64,000 bases of DNA from NCBI GenBank assembly GCA_000004985.1, contig GG738900.1; one strand, given 5' to 3'. The DNA is from Naegleria gruberi. Lineage: Eukaryota. Position 1 is the first letter of the stretch, and each line of letters opens with the position of its first letter. Below are positions 22,656 to 55,976 of this stretch, one piece after another. The notes below the pieces were generated by a model that saw only the letters and a list, made by a program, of their open reading frames with translations, searched no databases and was not told where the DNA came from. The position numbers were made by a program, and so were the translations under genes.

Positions 22656-22775
22656 ATGGCTACGGCCATATCACGATGAATGCACCTCATCCCGTCCGAT
22701 TTGAGAAGTTAAGCATCGTCGAGCCACATCAGTACTGAGGTTGGAGACAACTTGGGAACCTGTGGTGCTGTAGTC
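22656..22775 (+). rRNA. 5S ribosomal RNA gene, copy 1
   Basis: 120 nt. Terminal helix I GGCUACGG/CUGUAGUC. Internal box A AAGTTAAGC. Conserved CAUCCCGUCCGAU and GGUUGGAGACAAC…GGGAAC…GGUGCUGUA. Followed by a TTTTT Pol III terminator. Confidence 0.8.
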
Positions 22776-22953
22776 TTTTTACCTTAATAACTTTTAATAA
22801 CTTGAGTGTTAAAAACTGGAGAAGTTTTCACATTCACTTTAATTTCTCACCAAAACAGACTATCTTTCATGTGAGACATCACAAAAGTACTGTTTTCATA
22901 TTTTTGGAAATTTTCTAAATTGGGAAACCATTGTTTTCATTAATACGAAAAAA

Positions 22954-24055
22954 ATGATTCGAGGAACAAAGAAGATTTTTAAACAAGCCAGTAACAAGAT
23001 TAAATTCTGGTTTCAAGGAAAGACTTTGGACAATTATTTCACCCTGAAAAATCCTCATCATCATGATCAGATTAATGAAATCGAAAGATCAACTGAAGGA
23101 AACACCAAATATTGGATCCAAATTACCTTGTACTATCTGTTGGAGTATTTAATTCCCTTGCTTTGTTTAGCACTCATATTTTCAGTTCTATTTTCTGGAA
23201 TTCCCACTTATTCAGTGCCTTACTTTAGCTTGGACGATCCTGAATTGAGTTATCCAATTATTTTCAACTCGAGTGGTGGAGTTTATGATAATTTGCCACT
23301 GTGGTTTGTTGCTGTGGTGTTAGTGTTTGCAATTCCAGTGTGTACATTTGTGCTTTTTCACTTGTTATTTATGAGGAACTTACCAGACTTTCATCACGCC
23401 ATACTTGGATATATTCAAACTATAGCTCTTGCTATGGCAATGGTGGCATTTGGATGGCTTTGTTACGGATCATACAGACCTACATTTTTACAGGAATGTC
23501 AACCAGACACTTCCAAAAGTGAATCAACAATATCAGACAAGGCACCTCTCCAAAAATTCGTAAATATTCTCAAGTATTTTAAACCGAATCAGATATGCAA
23601 AGATCCTTCCAGATTCACACTTGGTTCACCTTCTGCAACTCCTGGTTTTCCCTCAGGACATATTGCCTCAGTAATGTCTGTTTGGGTCTTCTTTCTATTA
23701 TATTATGCAGCCAAAGCAAATGTAAGTTTCATTTTCAAAATATATATAGTGACCTTTATTAAAGACATGGAACAGAAGAAGAGGACAATTCTTCAAAGTC
23801 ATCCTATTCTTCCTCCTATTTCTGGTACCAGTTTGGGTGGGTATGACGAGAATTGTAACGAATAGACATACTGTAGCTCAGGTCATTGTTGGTGCCTTAA
23901 TTGGCATTTTTTCTGCACTATTAGTTTACAGATACAAGTATTGCTCACTATTTGGTGTTGATGCCAAAACTCCAAATTACTATTTGTGGTATAAATTGTA
24001 TCCTCAAAAGAATCCACAAGTTGAAACTTCCCTCCATCCAAATACCATTCCATAA
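22954..24055 (+). CDS. PAP2-family lipid phosphate phosphatase, 2 exons (22954..23721, 23765..24055; intron 43 nt)
   Basis: Six TM segments. Motifs KxxxxxxRP-like (YGSYRPT), PSGH (FPSGHIAS) and SRx5Hx3D-like (TRIVTNRHTVAQ). GTAAGT donor at 23722. Confidence 0.55.
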
Positions 24056-24147
24056 GATGATGAAAATCCAATAGAAGGATAATTAGGATTATTTATTTCT
24101 ATACTTATTTACAATTAAAATGATAAACTTTGGTCAACTAACTTGGT

Positions 24148-25272
24148 TTAGAAACATTTTCTGCGAACAATTACACAGCCAGCTTCTTCATATTCCTCTG
24201 CTGTTATCCACATGGGTTGAAAGGTAGATAATGAGGATAGAATACTACCACCAATCCAAACAGAATATTTTCTTTCAGGTGGAGCAACAACTTTAATCCT
24301 CGTTGAGGCTGGAGCCATAGCTGCCAATTCCTTATTCATTCTCTCATCAATTCCTCCAAACATGGTTGTACCGCCTGAAAGTACAACATTGACATATAAA
24401 TCCTTTCTAATATCAATATCACATTTTCCAATGGAATTGAAAGTTGTTTCGTGAATACCAGCAGCTTCCATTCCAATAAATTTTGGTTGGAATAATACTT
24501 CTGGACATCTAAATCTCTCGTTACCAACTGTGATAACGTTACCATCTGGTAATTCATAAGAGGCTTCAATGGATGAGCTATCAGATGCTTTCTTCATTTC
24601 AGTTTCAAAATCAAAGGCAACATAACAAAGTTTTTCCTTAATATCTCTGACAATTTCACATTCAGCACTGGTGTTGAAACTGTATCCACGTTCCATCAAG
24701 ATTTTCATCAAGTAATCAGTCAAATCACGACCTGCTAAATCCAATCTCAAAATGGCCTGAGGCAAAGCATAACCTTCATCGATTGGAACAGTATGTGAAA
24801 CACCATCACCTGAATCCAATACAATACCAGTACTTCTACCAGAAGCATACAAGGACAATACAGCTTGAATGGCCACATACATGGCTGGAACTCTAAAGGT
24901 TTCGAACATGATTTGAGTCATCTTCTCACGATTTGCCTTTGGATTCAAAGGAGCTTCAGTCAATAAGACACCATGCTCTTCAGGTCCAACTCTCAATTCA
25001 TTATAGAATGTATGATGCCAAATCTTTTCAATATCATCCCAGTTGGTAATGATTCCATGCTCAATTGGATATTTCAGAGTGATAGTACCCTTCTTGGACA
25101 TGGCTTCATCTCCGACATAGGCATCCTTGTACCTAACACCAACCATAATTGACCTTTGTTTGGGTCTACCAATCAATGATGGGAAAACAGCACGAGGAGC
25201 ATCTTCACCTGCGAAACCTGCTTTACACATTCCAGAACCATTGTCAATAACGAGAGGTCGATGTTCTTCCAT
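24148..25272 (-). CDS. Actin (divergent paralogue, 375 aa)
   Basis: [26 protein letters not shown]…[14 protein letters not shown]…LSGGTTMF…[13 protein letters not shown]. Roughly 80% identity to canonical actin by eye. Confidence 0.9.
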
Positions 25273-25513
25273 TTTGTTTGCAGTATAAACTTGTTTTTGA
25301 GTCTTTTTATATATTGTTTGTGAAAATATCTCAATTGTAAGCTCTGGATTTAGTTTGTCTTCAAATACTAAACCATTGTTCACTGTTCCTTGTCCTCAAC
25401 TTTGAATTACAGTAAAATATTACATCTCATTCTGTTTTAATCTTTATAATTTTCACAGATACATTATTCATGAAGAAGAAAATCAAAGTTTGAATAAGAA
25501 AATCAAAGTTTAA

Positions 25514-32845: not shown

Positions 32846-32914
32846 NNNNNNNNNNNNNNNNNNNNNNNNNNNNNNNNNNNNNNNNNNNNNNNNNNNNNNN
32901 NNNNNNNNNNNNNN
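32846..32914. other. Assembly gap (69 N)
   Basis: Run of N. Confidence 0.99.
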
Positions 32915-37342: not shown

Positions 37343-37432
37343 TAATTTATAATAATAAAGAATTTAATTGAAACTCTCTAGGTATCCCAACAACATCCAA
37401 ACAAAACACAAACAGATATATACCACTAACAG

Positions 37433-41289: not shown

Positions 41290-41301
41290 CAATTTCAACA
41301 A
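41092..41301 (-). pseudogene. Truncated copy of the oxidoreductase C-terminus (last ~65 aa)
   Basis: Translation FGSERAKNLYAERDGDQLAIILKWLSESGLWKDIPIHILSLDQASQAQKMSESNRTVGKIILHIP differs from the parent in 2 residues. No upstream exons. Confidence 0.65.
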
Positions 41302-41365
41302 AAATCTATGAGCCTTTTCTTGTCACATTAATAAAAATCTGCCATGTTGTTCAATTAACCACAAT

Positions 41366-42187: not shown

Positions 42188-42220
42188 TGTATGATTGTTT
42201 AAAAGTTATTAAGGTAAAAA

Positions 42221-42340
42221 GACTACAGCACCACAGGTTCCCAAGTTGTCTCCAACCTCAGTACTGATGTGGCTCGACGATGCTTACCTTCTCAAATCGG
42301 ACGGGATGAGATGCATTCATCGTGATATGGCCGTAGCCAT
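42221..42340 (-). rRNA. 5S ribosomal RNA gene, copy 2 (two substitutions relative to copies 1 and 3)
   Basis: Reverse complement matches copy 1 except C>T and T>G. Shares a 21-bp 3' flank (TTTTTACCTTAATAACTTTTA) with copy 1. Confidence 0.75.
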
Positions 42341-42428
42341 TCATTTATTTAAGTTCTGAGTCATAAATCTTTAAGCAACAGTTAGGATTGTAAGGAATAT
42401 ATTTTAATCAAGATTTTGGTTTGTTCTT

Positions 42429-42508
42429 CACTATGAACATGCTTGACTCACAACGTTGATCACAGCTAAGCCATTGTGAAAATAATTGAGTCAAGCATGT
42501 TCATAGTG
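42429..42508. repeat. Perfect 22-bp inverted repeat (stem) with 36-nt loop
   Basis: cactatgaacatgcttgactca … tgagtcaagcatgttcatagtg. Each arm is followed by CAACGTTG. Confidence 0.7.
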
Positions 42509-42741
42509 ATCAACGTTGTGCAGGATGTAATAGTTAAAGTTCATACTTTGCTCAAAATGGGAAGTTACTACCCTTAATAAGACCAATTTAAAAGAAAACA
42601 TTCATGTTCAATTTAGGAACTTTTAGAATTTTGACTTATTTTATTATCATCCACAAAGAAACCATTGTGCCAGCTCTTGTTGGTGCTAAATATGCTTGAT
42701 TTGGGTTATGTAAATTTCAAAGTGCAGAACATTTGAAAAAA

Positions 42742-45700
42742 ATGCTGAAAAACAGCATAACAGTAGATTTGAGCGGTAAGGACGGAGAAGATGGTCATCA
42801 AGGCAAGAGGTAAGAGTACATACCTCAATTTTTTTGATGTTAATATGTTGCCGAATTAGTGGACGTAATGGTGAAGTGGGAAAGGTAATGTTTCTAATCT
42901 CCCTTAATCATCATAAAATCACTGTTGTAAAATAGTCAGGGAAAAGTGGACAAATATCTGCCTTAAATAATGGAAATGGAAGTCATGGAGAACCAGGAGG
43001 ACCGTAAGTATATATTGCTGGAGTGAAATTAGCCATGTGTTAATAGAGGTGGAGATGGAGAGAATGGTGGAAAGTAAGTTCTAGCTGTTATTGAGTACTT
43101 GACCTTATTTAATATTCCTTCTCAACAACAGTGGAAAAAAGGGGCAACACGCAACAGCTGGTGGAAATATTTAAGTAAAAATTGAGGGATCCAATCACAA
43201 GTTAATCACTTTGAGTGGAAGTATCAATGATTCTGTGTGTTTGAATGATGGTGCTGGACAAGTTTTGGTGTTTCTGGCGAATGGTGGAAATGGTGGAAAG
43301 TGAGTATCAGTGTAGCTTTGATTTGAAGTGCTTACAATTATAGAGGTGGACGTGGAGGACCAGGTGGTAAGTTGCTGAATAGCAAACACGACTGAGAATG
43401 TAATTCATTCAGGAATGGGGGGAGTCGGCGGAAAAGGAGGAACTGGAGCAAGAGGTGGTAATGGTAGCTCTGGAGGTAATGGTATGAATGGTCAAGATGG
43501 TGGCAATGGAGGAAAGTAAGTATTGAATGATTGAGACAATTTTGAAACTAATAATTATTTCAGTGGTGGCGTGTAAGGAGAAATACAAGTTTAGTTAGTT
43601 GATTGAAATTTAGTGCTGGAAAAGGAGGAAATGGTGGAGAGTAAGTTTTAATAATTGGTTGGAAATTCATATGTGCGTTTAACAAGTGGAGGGGAAGGAT
43701 CCAAGTAGGTTTTTCAATTATTACAACTATTTTAATGTGGAATAGTGGTGGAAATGGTGGAAATGGAGGAAGTATTCTTATTGAAACAAATAATGCTTCC
43801 TTGTTGAAGTTTGTCAAAGCAGAAAGTCAACCAGGTAAAGGAGGAATGGATGGAAAAGGTGGCTCTGCAGGAAGTGCAGGTAAAGGAGGAGAGAAAGGAC
43901 CTGGAGGACCTGGTGGTAGAGGTGGTGCAGGAGGAGCTGCAATGGGAAGAGGAATAATCAATACAAGATCTGGATCCAATGGAAGGAATGGATCAGATGG
44001 AAAATCTGGACAAAAAGGTCAAGAAGGAAGGAAGGGAAATCCAGGACACACTGGACAAGATGGTACACCAGGAAATTTAACCATTAGAGTCTATGATCCT
44101 CTTACTAATCAACTTGTGGAGGAAGGTCATTCAATTTATAATTTGGTGGTAACAACATTCGAATTGTGTGGCTATGAAAATGATGGAATTTTTGAACCAG
44201 ATGAAAATGTCTTTATTACCAACGTTGGTGTTAAGAATCAAGGAGGATTGACATTACCATCAGGTTCAGTTCTCTCATTTCCAAGCACTCAAACATTTAT
44301 TTCAAACGGTGAATGTTATGTTTTGGAGAAGAATTTGGCACCAGGCGAATTCTTTTCAATTCCTTTCCAATTTTATGGTCGAGTTGTTGGAAGGAAACAA
44401 AAACAATTTGGCCCTTTCAAGTCAACAATTAGCATTCAATCAAGTGCTTGTCTGTTAACTTCTCCATTTAGTGAAGGTTTTGTTAAGAAGGAATATCCAG
44501 TTCAGTATCCAATAGTATTGGAAAGTGTGAAAGTTCCTAAAAGTTTGGGAAGAAATGAAAAAGGAACAGTTACAATCACCGTAAAGAATCAATCTCTTAT
44601 CAATTATGGCTCTTCATTGGGTGATGGATACAGAATTAAGTTTTGTTTAACTCTGGATTCAACGTATATCATTCTAACAGAAACAAGCGCAACTAATATA
44701 TTTGAAGAGGAAATTCCCTTCATCCAAGCAGGAATGTCATACTCTAGAACGTTTAACATTGAAACAACTATCAATGCCCAATTCTATGAAACCATTCCAA
44801 TTCAAACAAATTTATTTTTGAGAGGACATCCTATTGAGGAATCATTGAACTCCATTCGTATTCAACCAACATACATTCCAACTAATCTCGATTCTCCAAA
44901 TCCTTTCGATGTGCTCTTCTTCTCAGATAAGCACATTAATAGGCAGGAATTTTCAAATTACATGTCCCTGCTTGGTAGAATAGGATTGAACGTGAATGTA
45001 TGGGATATTGAGAGATACGGTGGACTATCTTATAATAATAAGGGTAAGAGACATACAAAATCATGGATTGATGGTGGTTATGAAGGTAAAATGATAATAA
45101 TGCCTCTTATGGAACAAGGCTCTGAAAAACAAATGGCTGTCTCAGATATTTTCCAACATTTCAGGGGCAAAAATTGGCAAAATGATTCATCAAAACCAAA
45201 CAATGGATCTATCGTTTTTATCGGTAACCCTTCTGATTCATTCAAAAGTCAACTCTTTGGCGAATGCTCAGCCCAACAAATCCCAGAATCTGAACTAAGA
45301 GAAATGTTTCTGCTTTCTGAACCGAATGAAAGCTCAATGCTTAAGAAAGCAACAGAGTTTATTAAATCCCTCAATAAGACACATCCATCAAGGGTTTATA
45401 GAACTGAAAATGTGTTATTCAATCCTCAAAAAGATGGCTCATTATCAAAAACTTTATTAGGATCAGCTGATTATAAGGAATTACCCTTAAGCACTGCTGA
45501 TGCTTTATATTTCATTCCAACAAAGAGTGGAAACTCTTCTGGATTCATGAACGGAGGTATTACACTTCAAATTGAAAGCAAATCAAATATTGGAAAATTG
45601 CTTAACACTATTCTATATTCACTTCCTGTTGAGAAAAAATTGGAATTGTTAAGGAAACCAACCGAATGGCTTTCCAAAGTTCAAATTAAGGATGAAAATG

Positions 45701-45960
45701 GTGATTTACTTAATTATGTAACTTGTATTATCTTTGCTCTAAGCTTTAATCTGTTTTTGGAAATAATTTACAACGATGAAAATGGAAGATTTTCAACGGG
45801 TATTGAAGCAGATTTTGAAGCACATTTTGATGAATATAAGAATCATCCTCAATCCAAACAAATTGTTGAAACTCTATATTTGGTATTAAAGAAACTTGGC
45901 AGTGAATTAAAATGGAGAGGAACATCGGTACCTAGCATTAAGGAAAGGAAAAACCTATGA
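42742..45960 (+). CDS. Collagen-like / Gly-rich repeat protein with C-terminal globular region; ~10 micro-exons then a 2.2 kb terminal exon
   Basis: Exon 1 encodes MLKNSITVDLSGKDGEDGHQGKRG… (GXY). Repeated GGNGGNGG(K) and GXY tracts (GRNGSDGKSGQKGQEGRKGNPGHTGQDGTPG) in tiny exons are separated by 50-90 nt GTAAGT..AG introns. Exon boundaries are approximate. Confidence 0.5.
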
Positions 45961-47060
45961 AACTGTTTACAAAGATTTGAAAAGCATTCTCCTCAAGATT
46001 TCATCGGAACCTGCTGAATTTTTGAAGAAGGAGACCAAGACTCGTATTGGTTCTATTTCAACGGATCACTTCTTATGTCAGTTGGAGAATTTCACTAGAC
46101 CACTATTGGAAAGTTATCATTTGGAAATGGAGAAGGAACTTAGTGTGGATGGAGGAGATCATGGACATTCTCATTGACATCCTCATTGAAAAATATCACT
46201 GGAATGAAGTTGTATTATTACTCAGTTTGGTGAACTGTGCAATAAAAAAACAACTTTTAAATTCATAAAACTTTTATTGTCGTTTAAGTACCTTACTCAA
46301 CCAGATACAATAATAATGCAATTTCAAATGGAGCCAGTGCGACATCTCTAATTTTACTTGGAATTCAAATTATTCTTCAAGATAGCCCTCCACACTTGAA
46401 TAAATATTCTCTCTCACGACAGTATCAGTAACTTCTTCAAATCCTTCAATATTATTTTCCTCATCATCATCGTCACTATATTTACTAGGATTCACTTGTC
46501 CCTCTCCAGCTTTACGAACCAATTTTTGTACTTCGTAGATAATGGCATAAATTCCATCTTCATCATTACTCTTTGGTTATTTATTCTCTTTGGTTAATCT
46601 TTTCATTACATTGCTGATTTGTGTGCTAACTTCATCATCACCTGCATCAGTATACATTCCATACATTTTTTTCTTTTGTGTGGCTGGTATGTTAAAACAA
46701 TGATGAACTTAAACATCCTAAAGGTTTACATTCGGTGAACATAAACAATTCTAGAAAAAACGAAATTTTGTAATGGCATTCTGAGTTCACATTCAATTTT
46801 TATCAGTTTCCATTCAATACAACTTTCCATCTATACCTCTAAATAGACTGGTTAATTGTTTTACTTCTGATGTAACATTTACAATGACACATAATCAAGC
46901 AAATCTTAGAGATAGATATTCGTAGAATTAGTTGTTACTGTGAAAAACAACCAACTTCCCAAACTAATCTTCGGAGTTGTTTTTGGAATTTTGTCAACTC
47001 CTCAACTTCTTTAAAAAGAAGGACATTATGATAATCTTATACAAGAAAAAAACAACAAAG

Positions 47061-50000
47061 ATGAATCACAAAGGTTTTGCATTGCTTCTTGTGTTAACAT
47101 GTCTGTTGTTTATTACCATTCATCCAATAATGACTAGTGAACAAATTATTCGAAACCTTGCCGGTCAAGGAATATGTGATGGTCATTTATCAACAAATGC
47201 ACCAGTCAATCCCAGTGATTGTGCCTTTTTGGATGAAGAAATGTTAATTGCAGATGCCACTAATCATAGAATTCGTAAAGTTTTCACAAATGGAACAATT
47301 GTAACCATAGCTGGAAATGGATTTGCTGGTTACAATGGAGATGGTTTAGATGCAACAAGTGCTCAATTGAACAATCCAGTTGGCATTTATGTTGATACCA
47401 ATAGTAGAGAAGTTTACATTGCTGATTCTAATAATCATCGAATTCGTAAAATATTACAGAATGGAAAAATTACAACAATTGCTGGAACAGGAATTGCTGG
47501 CTACAATGGAGATGACAAAAGTGCAGACAGTGCCCAATTGAACACCCCAAGTGGAATTGTTATTGATCCAAATAATGGAGAAATTTTCATTTCAGATTCT
47601 AAAAATCACAGAATTCGTAAAATTTTACAAAATGGTAAAATTACAACAATTGCTGGAACTGGAGAAGCTGGTTACAATGGAGATGGAATTGAGGCAAAGT
47701 TTGCAAAATTGTATCTACCAAACGGAATTGATTTGTATGAGAAAGAGTTGTTTATTGCTGATCAAAATAATCATAGAATTCGTAAAGTTTCGCTTGATAC
47801 TGGACTAATTTCAACTATTGCTGGAAATGGAAATTCAGGTTACAATGGAGATAACATTCTGGCAACAAACTGTAAATTGAGTTTACCTGCAGGAGTTAGA
47901 TACGATTCGAAAAGAAGAGAAGTTTACATTGCTGATTCCAACAACCAAAGAATTCGTAAAATATTAGAAAGTGGAATAATTGTAACAATTGCTGGAACAG
48001 GAGAAGCTGGATTTGATAATATTCTCAATGCTACCCAATCAAAGGTTAATCATCCTAATAGTGTTACTTTGAACGAATTAGGGGAAGTTTTCATTTCAGA
48101 TTCACAAAATTATCGAGTACGAAAGATTACAACAGAAAGTGGAATAATTACAACAATTGTAGGAAATGGATTTGAAAAGTATTGCACAGATTTAGCTAGT
48201 AACACACCATTGTTTTATCCTCGTGGTATAATTTCGAATGAAAATGGAGAATTTTTCTATGCCGATTCTAGCAACCATTGTATTCGAAAAATTCTGACAA
48301 ATGGTACAATTCTTACAATTGCTGGAACAGGTACTAAGGGTTACAATGGAGATGGAATTGAAGCAACAAGTGCTCAATTAAATACTCCTCACGATGTTGC
48401 ATTAAACTTGGCAACTGGCGAGATTTACATTGCAGATACGGAAAATAATAGAATAAGAAAAATTTTGACAAATGGTACAATTACAACAATTGCAGGAACT
48501 GGAGATTATGGATACAATGGAGATGGAATCATGGCTGTAGATGCATGGTTGAATGAACCGAGTGGTGTTGAAATTGATTCCACTAGCGGTGAAGTTTTCT
48601 TTTCTGATACTGAAAATTTCAGAATTCGAAGAGTTTCGAATAGTGGAATAATTACAACAATTGCAGGAACTGGAAAATCAAAATTTAATGGAGATGGTAT
48701 GGCAACAGACACGAATCTTGCTACTCCAACTGAAATTCAATACGTTCCAAGTACTACTGAAATTTATTTTGCTGATTCTGGAAATAATAGAATTAGAAAA
48801 TTTACTATAAATGGAATGATGACAACTATTGCTGGAACAAGCACAAGTGGATATAATGGTGATAATATGCCTGCAACACGTGCTTGGTTGAATTTTCCAG
48901 TTGGTGTAACATACGATCCAAAAACCAATCAAGTTTATATTGCCGATTTATCTAATCACAGAATTAGAAAAATTCTGACAAATGGTACAATTACAACCAT
49001 TGCTGGAACAGGAAAAGGAGGTTATAATGGTAATAACTTGACAGCCTTATCCACTCAAGTGAATGGACCTCATGGAATGATACTACAACCGAATGGTGAT
49101 GTAATCTTTTCAGATAGCACCAATAATGTCATTAGAATTATCAGATCTGATCAAATTTATTGTAATGGAACATTGTCAAGTGATTTGAATGTTTGTAATG
49201 GTCGTGGTTGGTGCATGGAGAGTGGAAAATGCTCTTGTCAAGACGGATGGATTGGTGATTATTGTTCAGAGCCAACATGTGAAAATGATTGTTATGGACA
49301 TGGAAGATGTGTTTCGAATAATACATGTGAATGTGAATATGGTTGGGATGGAAACTCTCACTGTTCTCAATTTTCATGTGGTGGATTGAATAATTGTAAC
49401 TCGAATGGTTTATGTGTTTCGAATAATACTTGCAGTTGCCAATCAGGATGGGCTGGAACTGATTGTTCTCAATTTACTTGTTCTGGCGCTAGCAATTGTT
49501 CAGATCATGGTTCCTGCATTTCGAATAATACTTGTCATTGCAATTCTGGTTGGAAAGGAAATGCCCAATGTTCCCAATTTACTTGTGAACTCACAAATGA
49601 TTGTTCGAATCATGGCTTGTGTGTTTCGAATAATACTTGTCAATGTAGTTCAGGTTGGAATTTCATTAATTGTTCCATCAAAGAATGTCTCATTTCAATT
49701 GTTTCAGGTTCAAGAGAATTGATATGTGGAAATGATAATTCTTCTGGTCAACTGAAAACATTTAGCAGAATAACGACTCCAGTAATTGAAACAACAAGTT
49801 TCGAATTGAATGAAAATCAACATGTAAATGTTGATATTGGATCAAGAATAATGAATTTGGATCTATCTCAAGACAAGTATTTCATAACCTCTTCATGGAC
49901 CAATTCGAATAATTTATTCTTTACCAATGTTTCCAATTTACTAATTCAAAACTCAGGTTCATCACTTATTCAAGCAGAACTTTCAACAAAAATCAAGTAT

Positions 50001-50789
50001 TCTTTCACGCATCATTCAAATCTTGATATCATGTCATTTAACTATAATTGTTTAAGATTTGACATCCTGTCACATTTGTGGACAAATCAATCCATAACAA
50101 CAAGCATTTCTCCACAAACTAACTCCATTACATGCACAACTATATTCATTTCTTCAGTAGTTGTTCAAAGAACTTTAATCCCTTCACCATCAATCTCACC
50201 AAAACACTCATCAAATCCATTTCCATCAATTTCACATGAAAATTCAATTCCACTCCCAAGCGATGAGACAATTACATTGAATATCCAACCTGGAGAATCA
50301 ATTCTCTATCAAATAACTCTTCCATCCATGAAAAGACTTTCACTTTCGTGTAAAACAATTTCAGGAAGAGATTTAAATTTGTTTATTGGAGAAAATTTCA
50401 AACCGTCTTATGAAATGTACTCAAAAGTTATGAATTCTAATCAGGAAATGGATTTTGAAAATTGGAAGTCGATATACCAGGTGTTTTACATTCGAGTTCA
50501 AGGTTTGAAAGATTCAACAACTCAATTCACTATAAGAGCTTCAATTAGTCAACTGAGACAAGTGAATTCTTCGAGTGGAGCAAGAAATGATAATTACACC
50601 ATTGGATTAATCGTCTCAAGTGTTATTTCACTTCTATTATTAATCATTACCATCCTAACTGTTCTTAGTTGTGTTTTCTATTGGAGAAAGAAACGTAAAC
50701 TTATGGAAGAAACCAGAACGAAACTACTTTCAACTCCTAATTCGCTTCAGTATTCACCTCACCAACCGTATGAAATGGAGGAAGCATAA
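47061..50789 (+). CDS. Type I membrane protein: signal peptide, ~12 NHL beta-propeller repeats, ~5 tenascin-type EGF-like repeats, TM, short tail
   Basis: Repeated …IADSNNHRIRKI…TIAGTGxAGYNGDG…AxLNxPxG… units. Cys-rich CxxxGxCxCxxGWxGxxC modules. TM IGLIVSSVISLLLLIITILTVLSCVFYW followed by RKKRK. Confidence 0.7.
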   Translation: MNHKGFALLLVLTCLLFITIHPIMTSEQIIRNLAGQGICDGHLSTNAPVNPSDCAFLDEEMLIADATNHRIRKVFTNGTIVTIAGNGFAGYNGDGLDATSAQLNNPVGIYVDTNSREVYIADSNNHRIRKILQNGKITTIAGTGIAGYNGDDKSADSAQLNTPSGIVIDPNNGEIFISDSKNHRIRKILQNGKITTIAGTGEAGYNGDGIEAKFAKLYLPNGIDLYEKELFIADQNNHRIRKVSLDTGLISTIAGNGNSGYNGDNILATNCKLSLPAGVRYDSKRREVYIADSNNQRIRKILESGIIVTIAGTGEAGFDNILNATQSKVNHPNSVTLNELGEVFISDSQNYRVRKITTESGIITTIVGNGFEKYCTDLASNTPLFYPRGIISNENGEFFYADSSNHCIRKILTNGTILTIAGTGTKGYNGDGIEATSAQLNTPHDVALNLATGEIYIADTENNRIRKILTNGTITTIAGTGDYGYNGDGIMAVDAWLNEPSGVEIDSTSGEVFFSDTENFRIRRVSNSGIITTIAGTGKSKFNGDGMATDTNLATPTEIQYVPSTTEIYFADSGNNRIRKFTINGMMTTIAGTSTSGYNGDNMPATRAWLNFPVGVTYDPKTNQVYIADLSNHRIRKILTNGTITTIAGTGKGGYNGNNLTALSTQVNGPHGMILQPNGDVIFSDSTNNVIRIIRSDQIYCNGTLSSDLNVCNGRGWCMESGKCSCQDGWIGDYCSEPTCENDCYGHGRCVSNNTCECEYGWDGNSHCSQFSCGGLNNCNSNGLCVSNNTCSCQSGWAGTDCSQFTCSGASNCSDHGSCISNNTCHCNSGWKGNAQCSQFTCELTNDCSNHGLCVSNNTCQCSSGWNFINCSIKECLISIVSGSRELICGNDNSSGQLKTFSRITTPVIETTSFELNENQHVNVDIGSRIMNLDLSQDKYFITSSWTNSNNLFFTNVSNLLIQNSGSSLIQAELSTKIKYSFTHHSNLDIMSFNYNCLRFDILSHLWTNQSITTSISPQTNSITCTTIFISSVVVQRTLIPSPSISPKHSSNPFPSISHENSIPLPSDETITLNIQPGESILYQITLPSMKRLSLSCKTISGRDLNLFIGENFKPSYEMYSKVMNSNQEMDFENWKSIYQVFYIRVQGLKDSTTQFTIRASISQLRQVNSSSGARNDNYTIGLIVSSVISLLLLIITILTVLSCVFYWRKKRKLMEETRTKLLSTPNSLQYSPHQPYEMEEA

Positions 50790-50843
50790 ACTATTGAACT
50801 GTTTTATAAACACAAATAGAATTTATTGTAAAAGTTTAAAAAA

Positions 50844-53309
50844 ATGTCTCAACACCAAGTTGATTTTACCCTCGCGGATCTTCCCACTGAAATTCATCAT
50901 ACAATTTTTTACTACCTCGATTATGTTCGTGATATTTGTTGTGATCAGTTATTGTATGTTCCGATGATTGAAATGCCATCAACATTGGAAGAATATGAAC
51001 GGAATTGTATTGATCATGGTGAACAGGAATTTATTGATTTTGATCATCCTAGTCGCGTGCCTTTCTTTTTAGCCTGTCAATCACTGCTGAAATCTGTAAA
51101 ATCATTCAGACCAATAGTTTTGAATTTAACACTACCATCAACAGAAAGGGGGCTCTGCAGATATTATTTGGACAAGTTATATATTGAAACATTTCAAAGA
51201 ACTCCTTGGTTTAGAAGAGCAAAACCTGCATATCATTTTAGTAGTTATGATTGGAATGACGCATTTAGAGCACTATTTGAAAGGATGAAAAAGCTTTGTG
51301 GTGGTCATCCTTTGTTTAAAGTGGAATTTGTATCAGTTGCTTGTATTGTTGGCAGAAACTATACCTCTTTTGAATATGCTTATCATGGAGGATTTAATTT
51401 ACACAAACTTATGGATCTAGTACCTAACCTTAAATATGCACTATTCGATTTCAACCCTTCATTAGTTTTATATGAAAGAAGTGAATCTTTGACCATTATT
51501 TATGCATCAAAGTCAGATTATTACCATTCAGCATTGGGACAAAAAAAGAACATTTACTTCTCATCCTTTGATTATGAAAGAAACCCAATAGTACCAATTG
51601 AAAAATTGAAAGGAGTATTTCCAAACAATTATCCAACAAATATTGAAATATTCCTCTACAATAGTATAGTATCAAATAATTTTAAGGAGGCAAAATATAT
51701 TATCAACAATTTTACTCTTAATGCTAATATATTTTCCTATATATGGAATACCAAATCTTACATGACACGAGAACTCAACTATTATAATCTTACACAAATT
51801 ATGGACATATTACATTTTTTTTACAAAAATTATCCATCTTTTAGAGTATTTAGAATTCCAATAGACAATATAGTATGCTTAAAACTAATTGTATCACAGC
51901 CATTTGTAGATATTCATGTTGGTAAGAATATTACCAAATTATTCCTAGAGAGAATGACTACTAAAGATGTTCAGGTACTATCTAGAGATTATAATGTTGA
52001 TTTTTCCAAACTTGGTAATTTCAAATTCTCTGCTAATTGTTTTTTAGAAACAAATTTACAAATAGAAAATACTTGTGATATTTTTGGTGTATCCACGGCT
52101 ATGTTTAGATTGGAAAGAGGCAGTAACATTATTGAGAAGGATAAGTTTGGAAATAATATCCTTCATTATATATTCTTGAATAGGAGAGGAAACAATTTAT
52201 CGCAATCTCTTTCAAAGTTTTCACAAGAGGAAATTAAATTACTTGGAAAAGAGCCAAACATTTTCGGTATCACTGCAAATGAACTAGCGCTTATTAAGGG
52301 ATGTGACTTTAAAATTGAAAGTTTTAATAAGAAATTCTGCTACGAGTCCTTTGGTAGAACCTGTGGCAGTTCAGATTTGCCTAGAATGTTACTATTTGAT
52401 GGATTAATGGTTAATGAACAAATCTATTGTGTATTTATGAATAATTTACAAACCAGTAGATATGATTATGATCAATATAGAGATATCAACTTTAGAGATG
52501 AAAATGGAAAGCATTTGGTTCACTATTCCCCAAATTGTTTTAGTGAAAACACAGAGTGTTTGGGTTTAGAATTGAAAGATATTATCTTTTGCAAAGATAA
52601 TAATCAAACAATGCCCATCCAAACATTTTACAATAGTTATCTTGTGGCTTTGGACAAGTTAGGACAAATTGAGAATATGCCCAAGTTGAACTTTTTTTCA
52701 TATACTGATAACTTTGGAATGTGTCGATATTTATATTTATTGATGAATTCCTATATTAATACTCAGTTATTGGTATCAGAAGCTGATACTATTGGATTTG
52801 ATTACTCTTCAGGTCAACCTGAACTTGTATCATTGTGTTCTCATTATTTGGATGGACTCTATCATTTTTCAATTGAAAAAAGCCCTTTGAAACAATTGAA
52901 AGGTATTAGATACTTTGGAAGTGTTGATGGAGATGATTTCTCACATTACGTATTGAGATATTATTTGGATTACATTAACAAAAACCCTACTTACTATCTA
53001 GACACTTCAACCCTCAAGGTTCTTATTGCTAGAGGACTAAAGTTTGATGTTGTTAGAAACTCACAAGGGCAAACAGCTTTTGATTTAATTGATCACTTAA
53101 CAGGGACGACACAATTGAAACATATGAAGAAAGTATGTAGAAAAGGCCGTACCACAAAATCCAAGGCATTACCCAAATTTACAATCAAACACAATCCAAT
53201 TCCAAAAGATGTTTTAATAGAGGATTCTGAAACAACACTTGTTGTTAAATCACAAAATGTTGCACCATTCCGTATTAGAATCAAACGCAGTTTAACATTT
53301 CACAAATAG
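50844..53309 (+). CDS. Hypothetical 821-aa protein with N-terminal F-box-like motif
   Basis: LADLPTEIHHTIFYYLD resembles an F-box. The remainder is unassigned, with possible ankyrin-like repeats. Confidence 0.4.
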   Translation: MSQHQVDFTLADLPTEIHHTIFYYLDYVRDICCDQLLYVPMIEMPSTLEEYERNCIDHGEQEFIDFDHPSRVPFFLACQSLLKSVKSFRPIVLNLTLPSTERGLCRYYLDKLYIETFQRTPWFRRAKPAYHFSSYDWNDAFRALFERMKKLCGGHPLFKVEFVSVACIVGRNYTSFEYAYHGGFNLHKLMDLVPNLKYALFDFNPSLVLYERSESLTIIYASKSDYYHSALGQKKNIYFSSFDYERNPIVPIEKLKGVFPNNYPTNIEIFLYNSIVSNNFKEAKYIINNFTLNANIFSYIWNTKSYMTRELNYYNLTQIMDILHFFYKNYPSFRVFRIPIDNIVCLKLIVSQPFVDIHVGKNITKLFLERMTTKDVQVLSRDYNVDFSKLGNFKFSANCFLETNLQIENTCDIFGVSTAMFRLERGSNIIEKDKFGNNILHYIFLNRRGNNLSQSLSKFSQEEIKLLGKEPNIFGITANELALIKGCDFKIESFNKKFCYESFGRTCGSSDLPRMLLFDGLMVNEQIYCVFMNNLQTSRYDYDQYRDINFRDENGKHLVHYSPNCFSENTECLGLELKDIIFCKDNNQTMPIQTFYNSYLVALDKLGQIENMPKLNFFSYTDNFGMCRYLYLLMNSYINTQLLVSEADTIGFDYSSGQPELVSLCSHYLDGLYHFSIEKSPLKQLKGIRYFGSVDGDDFSHYVLRYYLDYINKNPTYYLDTSTLKVLIARGLKFDVVRNSQGQTAFDLIDHLTGTTQLKHMKKVCRKGRTTKSKALPKFTIKHNPIPKDVLIEDSETTLVVKSQNVAPFRIRIKRSLTFHK

Positions 53310-53716
53310 CCTAGAAAATAATAAAATAAAGAAGTTCAGCAGAAACATCATATTGATAGATATCCAACAGGTGGTCTTACATCAGTATTAGCTGTTGATG
53401 AAAACAAAATGGGTTGGATTAACATTTAATTTGGCAGTTGACATTATTTCAATTAAGTTTTCTATTGGTTGAAAATGACGGGAAGCCTGCCAGGAATATG
53501 ACGACAATCCCGCTACAGTCTTTGACTGTATGAACAGTGAAGGCAACGAAGACAGAATCTTGTTGGTTCAGGTTTTGTTTGAAGAAATTGTTAAAGTTGA
53601 TCAACCTCATATTTATTGAACATTTGTCATGTTGAAATGCATGATGCAAATTTTGGTTTCTCATATTCTGATCAATTCTAAATTGAAACTTCATTATTTA
53701 CAATTTACTGAATTAT

Positions 53717-54004
53717 TTACAAGTTTTTAGATTTGGTAATTTTCTTAGTTGTGGTAGTAGATTGTTTAGCTCTCTTTTCAATTGAATTTTTAGAAGATCT
53801 TTTCACTGAAATTTGTTTACCATTTAAATTTGCATGATGATAATCAATATTATTACGATGTCTAGTTCCACTTATAATATTTGAAGTATCAATATCAAAT
53901 AATGGTAATCTTTTAGATAAATCAATTGGTTTAGATCTTGTCCATTCTGTTTTTGTTGGAATTCTATCTTCGGAAGAATGTGATGAAGTATTTCTAGCTG
54001 GCAT
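53717..54004 (-). CDS. Small Ser/Lys-rich basic protein, paralogue A
   Basis: Shares core NIISGTRHRNNIDY with the divergently oriented ORF at 54228..54443. Confidence 0.35.
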   Translation of the reverse strand: MPARNTSSHSSEDRIPTKTEWTRSKPIDLSKRLPLFDIDTSNIISGTRHRNNIDYHHANLNGKQISVKRSSKNSIEKRAKQSTTTTKKITKSKNL

Positions 54005-54227
54005 TTTGCTCTTAGTTCTTGTTATTAGGTTGTTTTGTTTTGTTGTGGAAATTTCATCATCCTATACCAGTTATCTATTTATTTCCATATTGATTTCCAC
54101 TAATTTTGTGATTCCGATTTTTAGTGGATTTTCCACTCATCACAAGAATTTGAATTTTTCTATTAATATTAAGGAAATTTAATGAAAATCAACAAACAAA
54201 AGAAAATAACAAAATAACAATAAGAAA

Positions 54228-54443
54228 ATGGTCTCAACAAGAAGAAATATGTATAATTCCTCCAATAATACTTCACAATTTAATTCCGAAATTTCTCTGG
54301 ATAATATTATTGGTGGAACAAGAAGAAGAAATTTAATTGATTACAAAACATTGAATTCTATTGGAAGTGAAACAAGCAAAACTTCCAAATCTCAATCACA
54401 TAACACTTTAGAAATGAGAAACAAACAATTCAAAATGTGGTAA
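54228..54443 (+). CDS. Small Ser/Lys-rich basic protein, paralogue B
   Basis: Core NIIGGTRRRNLIDY. Head-to-head with paralogue A, about 220 bp apart. Confidence 0.35.
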   Translation: MVSTRRNMYNSSNNTSQFNSEISLDNIIGGTRRRNLIDYKTLNSIGSETSKTSKSQSHNTLEMRNKQFKMW

Positions 54444-55243
54444 TCTCCATTTAACTCAAAATTTTGTAAACCTAGGCATTCATTGTAAATAAACCCAAAA
54501 TATTGATATAAAGGAATACTCTCCTAATCAAATAAATTGTCTTATTCAACAATATCGTTCCGTTTCAATAGCATAATAACAAAGAGTTGCATTCCTCCTC
54601 TTAATTTCCTTATCGTTAACTTTTCCATTATGAATCGTTTTTCCAAAGTAACTAGTTCTGCCAGTTTTAAAATGTAAGCAGTGTATTCAATTTTTAAATT
54701 GCAATAATGTACATGTTGTTTATCCTCATTGAAACATAATGAAATGAATTCCTTTTTGAAAAGAAGATTTTGGGATTCCTATTTACTTTGATATCACAAC
54801 ATCCATACATGCATGTTGAATGAGAGGGTGTTTACATGTCCGTGTAGTTTTTTTCATCATTGGCGGTTCCAAAAGTTACAACGAGTTCCCATCTAATTAT
54901 TTTAAGCAACACGATCAAGAGGGTTAAATGAGAATATTGTAAACTAATATCTCCCTTTTCCCTATGTGTTGTTATGAGTTCTATTCGATAGTTAGATGAT
55001 ACTGAGGTGTTACCATTCCTCTTACTGACTTCTCAATAAGGTTGTTCCACAAATGTTCAACCAATTCAATTCTCAGAAAACCATTGAACTCTATTAAACT
55101 CCATTGTAAATATTGTAATCTTACTCAGTCAAAATTACTATAAATTCAAATTGACAATTCTTTTTGATAAAAACAAAACAAACAAACAATAATATTCAAT
55201 ATTGAATTGTATCTGAAAACTCCTCAACAAACTTAAACTCAAA

Positions 55244-55780
55244 ATGACTCAACAAACTCACGAAGAATTATTCAATGAAAACATGTGTGGAAGTGGTTTG
55301 GCATTCAAGAAGGTAGTTTGTGAATTATTCAACAATCGTATTGTCCCTGCGACCAAGAATCTTCAACAAGTCAACCCAAAGATGATCATCTTGTTGGATT
55401 GGGCTTCTCTTGCTGCATTGCCAAGTGAAACCAAATACAAGTATGGTGATAGATTTGTTGAAGATACCCTGTTGAATAATTGCATCAAATTCTTAATTGA
55501 AAGTCCAAGATTGAGCAATATGAGTGAAATTGCCAAGGTTTTCATCAAGGATCCTGATTGTAAGGAAGTTTTTATGGGATTGGAAAAGTTGATTTTCAGA
55601 GTTGTACACAATGCTGATAGTAAGGAATCTTCAGGTTTCCTTGGATATTCTTACAAGGTTAATGGTACTGATTTGGTTGTCACTTTGGATTGCAATTTGA
55701 CTCTTGTTATGAAGGTTGCCAATGAAAGACAAAGCCCAACTGCTGATTCAGAAGCTAAAAAGTTGATTAATGCTTTCTAA
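55244..55780 (+). CDS. Hypothetical 178-aa protein with strong expression-type codon bias
   Basis: Intact ORF. Prefers ttc, aag, cca and ggt codons. No family recognised. Confidence 0.45.
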   Translation: MTQQTHEELFNENMCGSGLAFKKVVCELFNNRIVPATKNLQQVNPKMIILLDWASLAALPSETKYKYGDRFVEDTLLNNCIKFLIESPRLSNMSEIAKVFIKDPDCKEVFMGLEKLIFRVVHNADSKESSGFLGYSYKVNGTDLVVTLDCNLTLVMKVANERQSPTADSEAKKLINAF

Positions 55781-55856
55781 TTTTTTAAATGGCAGTACTC
55801 TATGAATCAACATTGATTTACCTAATAAAAAACCTTTATTTTTGAATTGTCAAAAA

Positions 55857-55976
55857 GACTACAGCACCACAGGTTCCCAAGTTGTCTCCAACCTCAGTAC
55901 TGATGTGGCTCGACGATGCTTAACTTCTCAAATCGGACGGGATGAGGTGCATTCATCGTGATATGGCCGTAGCCAT
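55857..55976 (-). rRNA. 5S ribosomal RNA gene, copy 3 (identical to copy 1)
   Basis: Reverse complement is identical to 22656..22775. Has its own flanks and a T-run terminator. Confidence 0.8.

What the first reader, a model, noticed from the sequence alone, without database searches (positions are those of the whole stretch)
22656..55976. Three dispersed chromosomal 5S rRNA genes embedded among protein-coding genes
120-nt 5S genes sit at 22656-22775 (+), 42221-42340 (-) and 55857-55976 (-), each followed by a T-run terminator. Copies 1 and 3 are identical. Copy 2 has two substitutions. Copies 1 and 2 additionally share 21 bp of 3' flank, and all three share AAATGAATGG immediately 5'. The sequence is clearly related to, but distinct from, the D. 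discoideum 5S, which resides on the extrachromosomal rDNA palindrome. A dispersed arrangement of single 5S genes is a different genomic organisation. It implies either 5S gene mobility (retroposition or ectopic recombination using the short conserved flanks) or an ancestral dispersed state in this lineage.
Basis: partly seen in the sequence, partly recalled or inferred. Interest (0 to 1): 0.65.

Follow-up and report, generated by a model that had tools for sequence, protein, structure and literature searches.

The report
Scattered 5S rRNA genes of Naegleria
The window holds three genuine, separately located 5S ribosomal RNA genes, but it comes from the amoeboflagellate Naegleria gruberi (not a Dictyostelium relative), and these exact three genes were already listed in a 2012 catalogue of 279 scattered 5S genes, so the finding is real but ordinary.

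Summary
Observation confirmed. Rfam RF00001 finds three full-length 5S genes: 22658-22776(+), 42220-42338(-) and 55856-55974(-), scoring 105/98.5/105 bits against a cut-off of 38. Each ends in T5 and lies among protein-coding genes. The shared 5' 10-mer is not exact in copy 1.

The interpretation needs correcting. A window protein is 100% identical to a Naegleria gruberi protein. The three loci match scaffold_56 entries in Table S1 of Feng et al. 2012, which lists 279 5S loci. Naegleria carries 18S/5.8S/28S on a circular plasmid without 5S.

The published coordinates show 117 scaffolds and no periodic spacing, so the genes are dispersed in loose clusters, not tandem as that paper states. Willaertia also has 5S genes between protein genes, so the state is old. 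Positions turn over, however. Copies 2 and 3 lie in an 18.7 kb N. gruberi-specific segment that replaces one UCH gene of N. lovaniensis.

Retroposition is not supported. There are no target-site duplications or A-tails, and homology extends into untranscribed flanks. DNA-level duplication or recombination with purifying selection or gene conversion fits best. Novelty: already known. Interest is low.

The parts
22658..22776 (+). 5S rRNA gene, copy 1 (majority sequence type)
   Evidence: RF00001 at 105.4 bits, full model. The MFE fold gives the three-way junction at -41.5 kcal/mol, z = -2.6. It equals scaffold_56 22661-22777 in Table S1 of PMC3369914.
22644..22657 (+). Conserved upstream element TTAAGTATATGAAT (-14..-1) of copy 1
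   Evidence: The pattern TTAANNANATGAAT matches only at the three 5S genes. A related element lies upstream of the Willaertia and L008 5S genes. A promoter role is inferred, not tested.
22776..22780 (+). T5 run, putative Pol III terminator of copy 1
   Evidence: Read directly from the sequence. That T-runs terminate Pol III transcription is established knowledge.
22781..22797 (+). 17-nt post-terminator flank ACCTTAATAACTTTTAA, shared with copy 2 only
   Evidence: inverted repeat I1, 157 nt, 97%.
42220..42338 (-). 5S rRNA gene, copy 2 (variant: C28U in loop B; U53G turns G25.U52/53 into a G.G mismatch and lies in the box A region)
   Evidence: RF00001 at 98.5 bits, with one non-canonical pair flagged. 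Pair 25-52 is broken only in this sequence. It still folds at -45.3 kcal/mol. It equals scaffold_56 42219-42335, similarity class 0.733.
42339..42352 (-). Upstream element TTAAATAAATGAAT of copy 2
42199..42219 (-). Four T residues of the T5 run that follow the gene's terminal U (42216-42219; the whole run is 42216-42220), plus the 17-nt flank shared with copy 1 (42199-42215)
55856..55974 (-). 5S rRNA gene, copy 3 (identical to copy 1), 129 nt upstream of the E2 (UQ_con) gene ATG at 56103
   Evidence: RF00001 at 105.4 bits. It equals scaffold_56 55855-55971. It is absent from the orthologous E2-upstream intergenic region in N. lovaniensis, an environmental Naegleria and N. fowleri.
55975..55988 (-). 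Upstream element TTAAGAAAATGAAT of copy 3
55852..55855 (-). Remainder of the T5 terminator run of copy 3 (the run is 55852-55856)
37343..56102 (.). 18.7 kb N. gruberi-specific segment between PP4R3 and E2. It holds tRNA-Glu x2, ADH, DUF4116, 5S copy 2, DUF7932, an NHL/EGF protein, two unknown ORFs and 5S copy 3. N. lovaniensis has a single 4.2 kb UCH gene in its place.
   Evidence: Collinearity maps from tblastn and the gene tables of L003 and L006. No UCH homologue is present in the window. The UCH genes of L003 and L006 are orthologous.
37465..37538 (+). tRNA-Glu(TTC) at the left edge of the lineage-specific segment, 123 nt after the PP4R3 stop
   Evidence: synteny.
40933..41006 (+). Second tRNA-Glu(TTC), in a local duplication that also copied an ADH 3' fragment
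   Evidence: families D15 and D19.

Best explanation
These are three ordinary nuclear 5S rRNA genes of Naegleria gruberi. They belong to a family of roughly 260-280 copies scattered singly or in loose kb-spaced clusters among protein-coding genes. The 18S/5.8S/28S genes sit on a separate multicopy circular plasmid.

Each gene is a self-contained RNA polymerase III unit of about 140 bp. It consists of a conserved element at -14..-1 (inferred promoter-proximal or start-site element), the 119-nt coding region with its internal control region, and a T5 terminator.

The dispersed state is old, since it is shared with Willaertia. Individual positions are gained and lost. The copies most likely spread and move at the DNA level by small segmental duplication, ectopic recombination or rearrangement. 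Purifying selection and/or gene conversion then keeps the ~140 bp unit uniform while the flanks randomise (birth-and-death style). Spread through an RNA intermediate is not indicated.

Shown: gene identity, structure, organism, unlinked and dispersed arrangement, lack of positional conservation for copy 3 (and for the segment carrying copy 2), and absence of retroposition marks. Inferred: promoter role of the upstream element, the DNA-level mechanism, and the expression of each copy.
For: Identity and structure:
- RF00001 scores 98.5-105.4 bits.
- 14 of 39 base pairs show compensatory changes across Naegleria, Willaertia and metagenome homologues.
- The folds are canonical.

Organism and prior catalogue:
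- 100% identical N. gruberi proteins.
- Coordinates match Table S1 scaffold_56.

Unlinked to rDNA:
- No 18S/28S/5.8S hit in the window.
- The plasmid encodes only 5.8S, 18S and 28S (PMC5805870).

Dispersed arrangement:
- 279 loci lie on 117 scaffolds. The median same-scaffold gap is 33.9 kb and the minimum is 1.1 kb for full-length hits. No repeated spacing occurs. 19% of gaps are under 5 kb against about 3% for a Poisson scatter.

Ancient state:
- Willaertia L004/L005 each carry one full 5S and one relic within 20 kb of coding DNA.
- L008 carries a single 5S 166 nt from a 361-aa ORF.

Turnover:
- N. gruberi 31.4-37.3 kb and 56.0-63.6 kb are collinear with N. lovaniensis.
- The 18.7 kb between them, carrying copies 2 and 3, replaces one UCH gene.
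- The UCH-E2 adjacency with a 121-123 nt 5S-free spacer is shared by N. lovaniensis and an environmental Naegleria.

DNA-level spread rather than RNA-level:
- Homology includes 14-17 untranscribed upstream nt in all copies. It also includes 17 nt beyond the T5 terminator in copies 1 and 2.
- Flanking direct repeats of 7, 5 and 6 nt compare with a null mean of 5.6, P(>=7) = 0.16, and there are no A-tails.
- A neighbouring tRNA-Glu was demonstrably co-duplicated with at least 400 bp of flank.

Upstream element under constraint:
- It is still recognisable in Willaertia, whose 5S is only 81% identical, and in L008.
Against: - Only three N. gruberi copies could be inspected at sequence level. The rest of the catalogue is known here only as coordinates and a similarity score.
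- The 2012 catalogue rests on a Sanger draft. An additional unassembled tandem 5S array cannot be excluded, and many 5S hits lie on very small scaffolds.
- The Poisson comparison ignores scaffold ends.
- Positional turnover is demonstrated at one syntenic site only. For copy 1 no syntenic comparison could be obtained.
- The direction of change (gain in N. gruberi versus loss elsewhere) rests on two Naegleria lineages. The Willaertia outgroup has a different neighbourhood.
- The promoter role of the -14..-1 element and the expression of copy 2 are untested.
- The uniformity of copies could reflect either gene conversion or selection; these are not separated here.
Confidence: 0.8

Rival explanations
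1. The copies were spread by retroposition. 5S RNA would be reverse-transcribed, for instance by LINE machinery, and inserted at new sites, as proposed for some mammalian 5S copies.
For: - Copies share only a short unit of 140-157 nt with sharp homology boundaries.
- A 7-nt direct repeat, CCTTAAT, brackets copy 1.
- The Willaertia relic at L004 11053-11165 is 5'-truncated or replaced and is followed by an A6 run.
- LINEs exist in Naegleria genomes (repeat table in PMC6831594).
Against: - The 7-nt repeat is within chance (P = 0.16 per locus), and the other two copies have 5 and 6 nt.
- No poly-A or A-rich tails are present.
- Homology includes 14-17 nt upstream of +1 in all copies. It also includes 17 nt beyond the T5 terminator in copies 1 and 2, which a Pol III transcript should not contain.
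Confidence: 0.07
2. The dispersed copies are orphons or decaying by-products. The working 5S genes would lie in a tandem array, or on an extrachromosomal element, that the draft assembly failed to capture.
For: - PMC3369914 scores N. gruberi 5S as tandemly arranged.
- Tandem arrays are commonly collapsed or lost in draft assemblies (general knowledge; also stated in PMC11202950's abstract).
- Copy 2 carries a pair-breaking substitution in the box A region.
Against: - That paper's own coordinates show no tandem spacing.
- 161 of 279 loci share the modal similarity value with copies 1 and 3 (counted). Copies 1 and 3 are identical despite unrelated flanks, which is unexpected for unconstrained orphons.
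- All three keep the upstream element and terminator.
- The sequenced rDNA plasmid has no 5S.
- Willaertia and L008 show the same single-gene arrangement.
Confidence: 0.08
3. Assembly artefact or contamination: rDNA fragments mis-joined into a chromosomal scaffold.
For: The window contains N-gaps and a suspiciously perfect 8 kb tandem duplication at 1.7-17.4 kb.
Against: - None of the N-runs is near a 5S gene; the nearest is 32846-32914.
- Each 5S lies in unique sequence between genes whose order is conserved in N. lovaniensis right up to the 5S site.
- The 5S sequence differs by 1 nt from an independent environmental Naegleria-like contig.
- No 18S/28S fragments accompany them.
Confidence: 0.01

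Closest known systems
The N. gruberi 5S rRNA gene catalogue of Feng et al. 2012 (PLoS One 7:e36878, Table S1)
   Same: Identical objects. Entries R33730 (scaffold_56 22661-22777), R33731 (42219-42335) and R33445 (55855-55971) are the three genes of this finding. The paper also reports that they are not located with the rDNA unit and that they have an ICR and an upstream TATA-like box.
   Different: That paper tabulates the arrangement as 'tandem: Y'. Its own coordinates instead show kb-to-100-kb irregular spacing over 117 scaffolds. It did not examine flanks, synteny or mode of spread.
Dispersed 5S rRNA genes of fungi: Neurospora crassa (Metzenberg et al. 1985), Schizosaccharomyces pombe (Mao et al. 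1982) and Yarrowia lipolytica (108 copies; Acker et al. 2008, PMC2566860)
   Same: - Tens to hundreds of single 5S genes lie scattered among unrelated genes, unlinked to the 35S/45S unit.
- Short conserved flanks are limited to promoter-proximal sequence.
- Occasional truncated relics occur.
   Different: - This is an unrelated lineage (Heterolobosea).
- The large rRNA genes are extrachromosomal rather than in a chromosomal array.
- There is no tRNA-5S dicistronic fusion as in Yarrowia; the nearest tRNA is 1.2 kb away and convergent.
- The upstream element directly abuts +1 rather than forming a -30 TATA box.
Dictyostelium discoideum 5S on the extrachromosomal rDNA palindrome
   Same: Both organisms keep their large rRNA genes on multicopy extrachromosomal elements.
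   Different: - In Naegleria the element is a ~14 kb circle carrying 18S/5.8S/28S only, and 5S is chromosomal.
- The two organisms belong to different eukaryotic supergroups.
- No specific relationship of the 5S sequences was tested or is needed.
Entamoeba tRNA/5S array units (PMC2652664, abstract seen)
   Same: Another amoeboid protist with a circular extrachromosomal rDNA and 5S located elsewhere, together with tRNA genes.
   Different: Entamoeba 5S sits inside long tandem tRNA arrays. Here 5S and tRNA genes are single units interspersed with protein-coding genes.

Membership tests
5S ribosomal RNA (Rfam RF00001) | Scores above the curated gathering threshold of the covariance model over its full length | tested here: met
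   Scores are 105.4, 105.4 and 98.5 bits against GA 38, with model positions 1-120 covered.
5S ribosomal RNA (Rfam RF00001) | About 120 nt with a three-way junction of helices I-V, supported by covariation | tested here: met
   The genes are 119 nt. The MFE and consensus folds give the canonical architecture. 14 of 39 pairs show double compensatory changes across six homologues. Copy 2 has one broken pair (G.G at 25-52).
5S ribosomal RNA (Rfam RF00001) | Pol III gene anatomy: T-run terminator and internal control region (box A / IE / box C) | tested here: inconclusive
   The T5 terminator is present in all three. An ICR is claimed for N. gruberi by PMC3369914 but was not independently scored here. 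U53G in copy 2 falls in the box A region.
5S ribosomal RNA (Rfam RF00001) | Transcribed and incorporated into the large ribosomal subunit | not testable with these tools
Dispersed (unlinked, non-tandem) 5S gene organisation | Not linked to the 18S-5.8S-28S unit | tested here: met
   No other rRNA hits occur in 64 kb. The plasmid carries 5.8S, 18S and 28S only (PMC5805870). The catalogue scores 'located with rDNA units: N'.
Dispersed (unlinked, non-tandem) 5S gene organisation | Single genes flanked by unrelated unique sequence or protein-coding genes | tested here: met
   Flanks are unalignable beyond -17 and +21. Neighbours are PAP2, actin, an E2 enzyme, DUF7932 and others.
Dispersed (unlinked, non-tandem) 5S gene organisation | No regular head-to-tail spacing genome-wide | tested here: met
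   There are 162 same-scaffold gaps with a minimum of 1104 bp for full-length hits, a median of 33.9 kb and no recurrent period. Caveat: this is a draft assembly, so an unassembled array is not excluded.
Retroposed 5S copies / 5S-derived SINEs | Target-site duplications flanking the insert | tested here: not met
   The longest flanking direct repeats are 7, 5 and 6 nt. The empirical null has mean 5.56 and P(>=7) = 0.16.
Retroposed 5S copies / 5S-derived SINEs | A-rich or LINE-derived 3' tail, with homology confined to transcribed sequence | tested here: not met
   There is no A-run longer than 5 nt downstream. Homology extends 14-17 nt upstream of +1, and 17 nt past the terminator in copies 1 and 2.
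Dicistronic tRNA-5S genes (Yarrowia type) | 5S gene immediately 3' of a tRNA gene on the same strand without an intervening terminator | tested here: not met
   The nearest tRNA (Glu, 40933-41006, +) is 1.2 kb from copy 2, which lies on the opposite strand.
5S linked to an extrachromosomal rDNA element (Dictyostelium type) | 5S gene resides on the rDNA element | tested here: not met
   The genes lie on a 312 kb nuclear scaffold among syntenic chromosomal genes. The Naegleria plasmid lacks 5S.

The most novel reading that the evidence does not exclude
Dispersed Pol III genes (5S and tRNA) may act as hotspots or substrates for chromosomal rearrangement in Naegleria. The one lineage-specific 18.7 kb segment that could be delimited here has a tRNA-Glu 123 nt inside its left edge and a 5S gene 129 nt inside its right edge, and it contains four Pol III genes in all.

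Coupled to this, Naegleria 5S transcription may rely on an unusual start-site-abutting upstream element (TTAANNANATGAAT, -14..-1). That element is conserved into Willaertia, in a lineage where no TFIIIA homologue was found by BLAST or PSI-BLAST (PMC3369914).
Probability: 0.2. Interest if true: 0.4.

Novelty: already known. Interest (0 to 1): 0.15.

Why it matters
It matters little as a discovery. The loci are published, and dispersed 5S genes are a recognised if uncommon arrangement.

Modest value lies in three points:
1. It corrects the record. A published table calls N. gruberi 5S genes 'tandem', and a genome announcement says Naegleria has 'no rRNA genes in the nuclear DNA'. The coordinates and sequence show about 280 dispersed nuclear 5S genes.
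2. Naegleria combines plasmid-borne large rRNA genes at about 4000 copies with a few hundred scattered chromosomal 5S genes. That raises a dosage-coordination question that could be studied.
3. The single syntenic comparison hints that 5S and tRNA genes sit at rearrangement boundaries. This is testable now that several Naegleria and Willaertia genomes exist.

Tried and rejected
- Exact-product look-ups for N. gruberi proteins failed (window UTP7 ORF; paralogue P0243). No further N. gruberi 5S copies could therefore be retrieved for a family-wide flank analysis.
- UTP7-centred loci were 5S-free (L001 N. lovaniensis, L002 Willaertia). The Willaertia neighbourhood shared no genes with the window, so it was uninformative.
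- The PAP2 gene beside copy 1 has an N. fowleri orthologue (L010), but no other gene there is syntenic with the window and there is no 5S. Copy 1 could not be polarised.
One is Naegleria-like (L008). The other is an unrelated GC-rich organism lacking the upstream element (L009).
- Clark & Cross 1987 (PMC367933) is not held, so whether 5S location was addressed in 1987 could not be checked.
No reference sequence was available, and the organism assignment made the test moot.
- Rejected readings:
  - A 5S-derived SINE: the element is a full-length 5S with no tail.
  - A tRNA-5S fusion: distance and orientation are wrong.
  - A compensatory double substitution in copy 2: C28U is unpaired and U53G breaks a pair.

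Full report

Yes. An Rfam scan of the whole window at gathering thresholds returns three full-length 5S rRNA matches, each covering model positions 1-120 of 120. They are 22658-22776 (+) at 105.4 bits, 55856-55974 (-) at 105.4 bits and 42220-42338 (-) at 98.5 bits. The family cut-off is 38 bits. The scan also returns four tRNA genes (tRNAs confirmed by ARAGORN).

Sensitive blastn-short and nhmmer searches with the 5S sequence find no other copy or relic in the 64 kb.

Copies 1 and 3 are identical over 119 nt. Copy 2 differs at two positions. All three run into TTTTT.

Aligning 720 nt around each copy shows that similarity is confined to the gene plus about 17 nt upstream and 5-21 nt downstream. 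Everything beyond is unalignable. The repeat finder delimits the same units: 157 nt at 97% for copies 1 and 2, and 140 nt at 98% for copies 1 and 3.

They include two flank bases, 'AT', at the 5' end and omit the last base. The claim that all three share AAATGAATGG is slightly wrong, because copy 1 reads ATATGAATGG. The invariant part is TTAANNANATGAAT at -14..-1. That pattern occurs three times in the window, each time abutting a 5S gene. The pattern was derived from these sites, so this shows only that it occurs nowhere else.

**2. Structure of the three copies**

Copies 1 and 3 fold into the canonical three-way junction at -41.5 kcal/mol with z = -2.6. Copy 2 also folds, at -45.3 kcal/mol.

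These are an environmental Naegleria-like contig (118/119 identical), two Willaertia magna copies (96/119 and 94/119) and an unrelated metagenome 5S. Of 39 predicted pairs, 14 keep pairing through changes on both sides.

The two substitutions in copy 2 are not compensatory. C28U lies in an unpaired loop. U53G turns a G.U pair into G.G and falls in the conserved AAGUUAAGC (box A) region. Copy 2 is therefore a slightly impaired variant. Whether it is expressed is unknown.

**3. What organism is this, and was it known?**

The flanking ORFs are eukaryotic nuclear genes: actin, copine, PAP2, the UTP7/BING4 WD40 protein, an E2 ubiquitin-conjugating enzyme, PP4R3 and an NHL/EGF protein.

The 755-aa UTP7 ORF is 100% identical over its full length to an NCBI Naegleria gruberi protein on a 312,004 bp contig. 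The next best hits are an unnamed environmental sequence at 74%, then Willaertia magna (65%) and N. lovaniensis (60%). The E2 ORF is likewise 100% identical to an N. gruberi protein.

This is a heterolobosean.

Feng et al. 2012 (PMC3369914) searched the JGI N. gruberi assembly and reported 279 putative 5S genes. Their Table S1 lists scaffold_56 22661-22777, 42219-42335 and 55855-55971. These are the three loci of this finding, in the same coordinates. The window is therefore scaffold_56:1-64000, and the genes are already catalogued.

The same paper records that the genes are not located with the rDNA unit, that they have an ICR and a TATA-like box, and that no TFIIIA homologue was found in N. 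gruberi.

Independent literature states that Naegleria carries single 5.8S, 18S and 28S genes on 3,000-5,000 copies of a ~14 kb circular element (PMC5805870). It also states that Infernal finds 5S rRNAs 'on the nuclear genome' of N. fowleri (PMC6831594).

**4. Dispersed or tandem?**

Feng et al. tabulate 'tandem arrangement: Y' for N. gruberi. I transcribed all 279 coordinates from their Table S1 and analysed them.

- The loci lie on 117 scaffolds, and 57 are alone on their scaffold.
- The 162 same-scaffold neighbour gaps have a median of 33.9 kb.
- The smallest gap between full-length hits is 1,104 bp.
- No spacing recurs, so there is no sign of head-to-tail arrays.
- The loci are, however, more clustered than a random scatter. 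19% of gaps are under 5 kb, against about 3% for a Poisson process at 279 loci per 41 Mb.

Two caveats apply. The genome size is from my own knowledge of Fritz-Laylin et al. 2010. The comparison ignores scaffold ends, so it is approximate.

The window's gaps of 19.6 kb and 13.6 kb fit this picture of dispersed genes in loose clusters.

By row order in Table S1, copies 1 and 3 belong to the modal similarity class (161 of 279 loci). Copy 2 belongs to a class of 27 loci with two fewer matches.

One limitation remains. The catalogue rests on a draft assembly, so an additional unassembled array cannot be excluded.

**5. Ancestral state versus mobility**

I fetched orthologous loci through flanking genes.

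The E2 gene just downstream of copy 3 has clear orthologues (71-81% identity) in N. lovaniensis, N. fowleri, Willaertia magna and an environmental Naegleria.

A tblastn map gives these results.

- N. gruberi 31.4-37.3 kb (an unknown gene, OST3, ribosomal S10, PP4R3) is collinear with N. lovaniensis L003 63-5485.
- N. gruberi 56.0-63.6 kb (E2, DUF1681, ADK, an unknown gene, UTP7, a metallophosphatase) is collinear with L003 9968-20422.
- Between these two blocks N. lovaniensis has one gene, a 1,256-aa UCH, separated from E2 by 123 nt.
- N. gruberi instead has 18.7 kb with no UCH homologue. This stretch contains tRNA-Glu, ADH, DUF4116, a second tRNA-Glu, an unknown ORF, 5S copy 2, DUF7932, the NHL/EGF gene, two more ORFs and 5S copy 3.

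The environmental Naegleria has the closest E2 to N. gruberi (81%). It also shows an orthologous UCH followed by E2 after 121 nt.

No 5S is present in any of these relatives' loci. That includes the 439 nt upstream of E2 in N. fowleri.

Copy 3, and the segment carrying copy 2, are therefore not at positions conserved within the genus. The simplest reading is a rearrangement or insertion in the N. gruberi lineage. A tRNA gene lies 123 nt inside the left edge of the segment, and a 5S gene lies 129 nt inside the right edge.

For copy 1 no informative comparison was possible. The N. fowleri PAP2 neighbourhood shares no other gene with the window.

The dispersed state itself is old. The two Willaertia contigs carrying the E2 orthologue each hold a full 5S (99.9 and 87.9 bits). 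Each also holds a 5'-replaced relic (48.9 bits) between protein-coding genes within 20 kb. The Naegleria-like metagenome contig L008 has a single 5S 166 nt from a 361-aa ORF.

**6. How do the copies spread?**

Retroposition predicts target-site duplications, A-rich tails and homology limited to the transcript. None of these is seen.

- The longest direct repeats bracketing the three units are 7, 5 and 6 nt. An empirical null from 5,000 random 40-mer pairs in the same window has a mean of 5.56 and P(>=7) = 0.16.
- No A-run downstream exceeds 5 nt.
- Homology includes 14-17 nt upstream of +1 in all copies. In copies 1 and 2 it includes 17 nt beyond the T5 terminator.

The upstream element remains recognisable in Willaertia (AGAATTCAAATG-ATAGAT|AT) and in L008 (AGAATTAACATAAGTAGAT|GG). 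The genes themselves have diverged to 81% identity with many compensated changes.

That pattern is what selection on a promoter-proximal or start-site element would produce. The shared 5' flank is therefore weak evidence about the mechanism of spread. The post-terminator flank shared only by copies 1 and 2 is better evidence. It points to a DNA-level event (duplication or a conversion tract) linking those two copies.

Local DNA-level duplication of a Pol III gene is directly visible next door. The second tRNA-Glu was copied together with a 3' fragment of the ADH gene (families D15 and D19).

The best-supported model has two parts. Spread and relocation occur at the DNA level. Purifying selection and/or gene conversion then holds the ~140 bp unit constant while the flanks randomise. 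I could not separate selection from conversion with three copies.

**7. Comparison with known systems, and verdict**

The objects are members of RF00001 by every testable criterion. The organisation matches the dispersed 5S arrangement long known in Neurospora crassa, Schizosaccharomyces pombe and Yarrowia lipolytica (PMC2566860 and PMC1635290). A recent review describes this arrangement as occurring 'very occasionally' (PMC10946416).

The genes are not of the Yarrowia tRNA-5S dicistronic type. They are not on the rDNA element as in Dictyostelium. They are not SINE-like.

The exact loci are in a published table, and nuclear 5S genes are noted in Naegleria genome papers. The finding is therefore already known.

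Three small points remain of interest.

- The published 'tandem' label needs correcting.
- Positional turnover is demonstrated at a syntenic site.
- Pol III genes may mark rearrangement boundaries, alongside a start-site-abutting upstream element in a lineage with no detected TFIIIA. This rests on a single observed case.

Noticed in passing
window 1713-17417: There is an ~8 kb tandem segmental duplication at 95-100% identity. Each unit carries a tRNA-Arg(TCT) gene (8178-8251 and 16255-16328, both minus). One unit is interrupted by a 2,195-nt N gap (3935-6129), so part of this may be an assembly artefact.
   Followed up: no
window 37432-37801 and 40900-41312: The two tRNA-Glu(TTC) genes lie in a short dispersed duplication. 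tRNA plus flanks is 97% identical. A further 222 nt at 92% corresponds to the 3' end of the ADH gene at 37581-38621(-). The second copy therefore carries an ADH gene fragment, which shows DNA-level co-duplication of a Pol III gene with its flank (D15/D19).
   Followed up: partly
window 37343-56102 versus L003 5489-10000: An 18.7 kb N. gruberi-specific segment replaces the single UCH gene found between PP4R3 and E2 in N. lovaniensis. UCH also precedes E2 in an environmental Naegleria. Pol III genes lie just inside both edges of the segment. Where the N. gruberi UCH orthologue went could not be checked.
   Followed up: partly
L004 and L005, 11053-11165 (+) (Willaertia magna): This is a 5S relic at 48.9 bits. 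Its first ~30 nt are replaced by unrelated sequence, and the rest is identical to the full Willaertia 5S through the terminator. It is followed by an A6 run and lies about 390 bp downstream of the E2 orthologue.
   Followed up: no
L004 versus L005 (Willaertia magna JBEGDK010000164.1 and JBEGDK010000068.1): Two contigs carry near-identical 20 kb regions with the same gene order. They are probably haplotypes or a recent large duplication. Their full 5S copies differ at 2 of 119 positions, with a drop from 99.9 to 87.9 bits.
   Followed up: no
window 46977-50789 (+): A 1,270-aa ORF has about ten 171-nt (57-aa) NHL repeats followed by teneurin-like EGF repeats. It lies inside the N. gruberi-specific segment.
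   Followed up: no
L001 5834-9875 (= L003 14923-18964): N. lovaniensis has two adjacent voltage-gated chloride channel (CLC) genes between the unknown gene and UTP7. The collinear N. gruberi region (61.2-61.3 kb) lacks them. This is a second lineage-specific difference within the same syntenic block.
   Followed up: no
Literature: PMC3369914 Table 1; PMC5805870: Two published statements conflict with the data. N. gruberi 5S genes are tabulated as 'tandem: Y', yet the paper's own Table S1 shows dispersed loci. [quoted passage not shown]
   Followed up: yes
L001 15759-16040 (N. lovaniensis): A called 93-aa gene has a weak Phage_integrase (PF00589) hit downstream of the metallophosphatase gene. 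This may be a mobile-element remnant.
   Followed up: no
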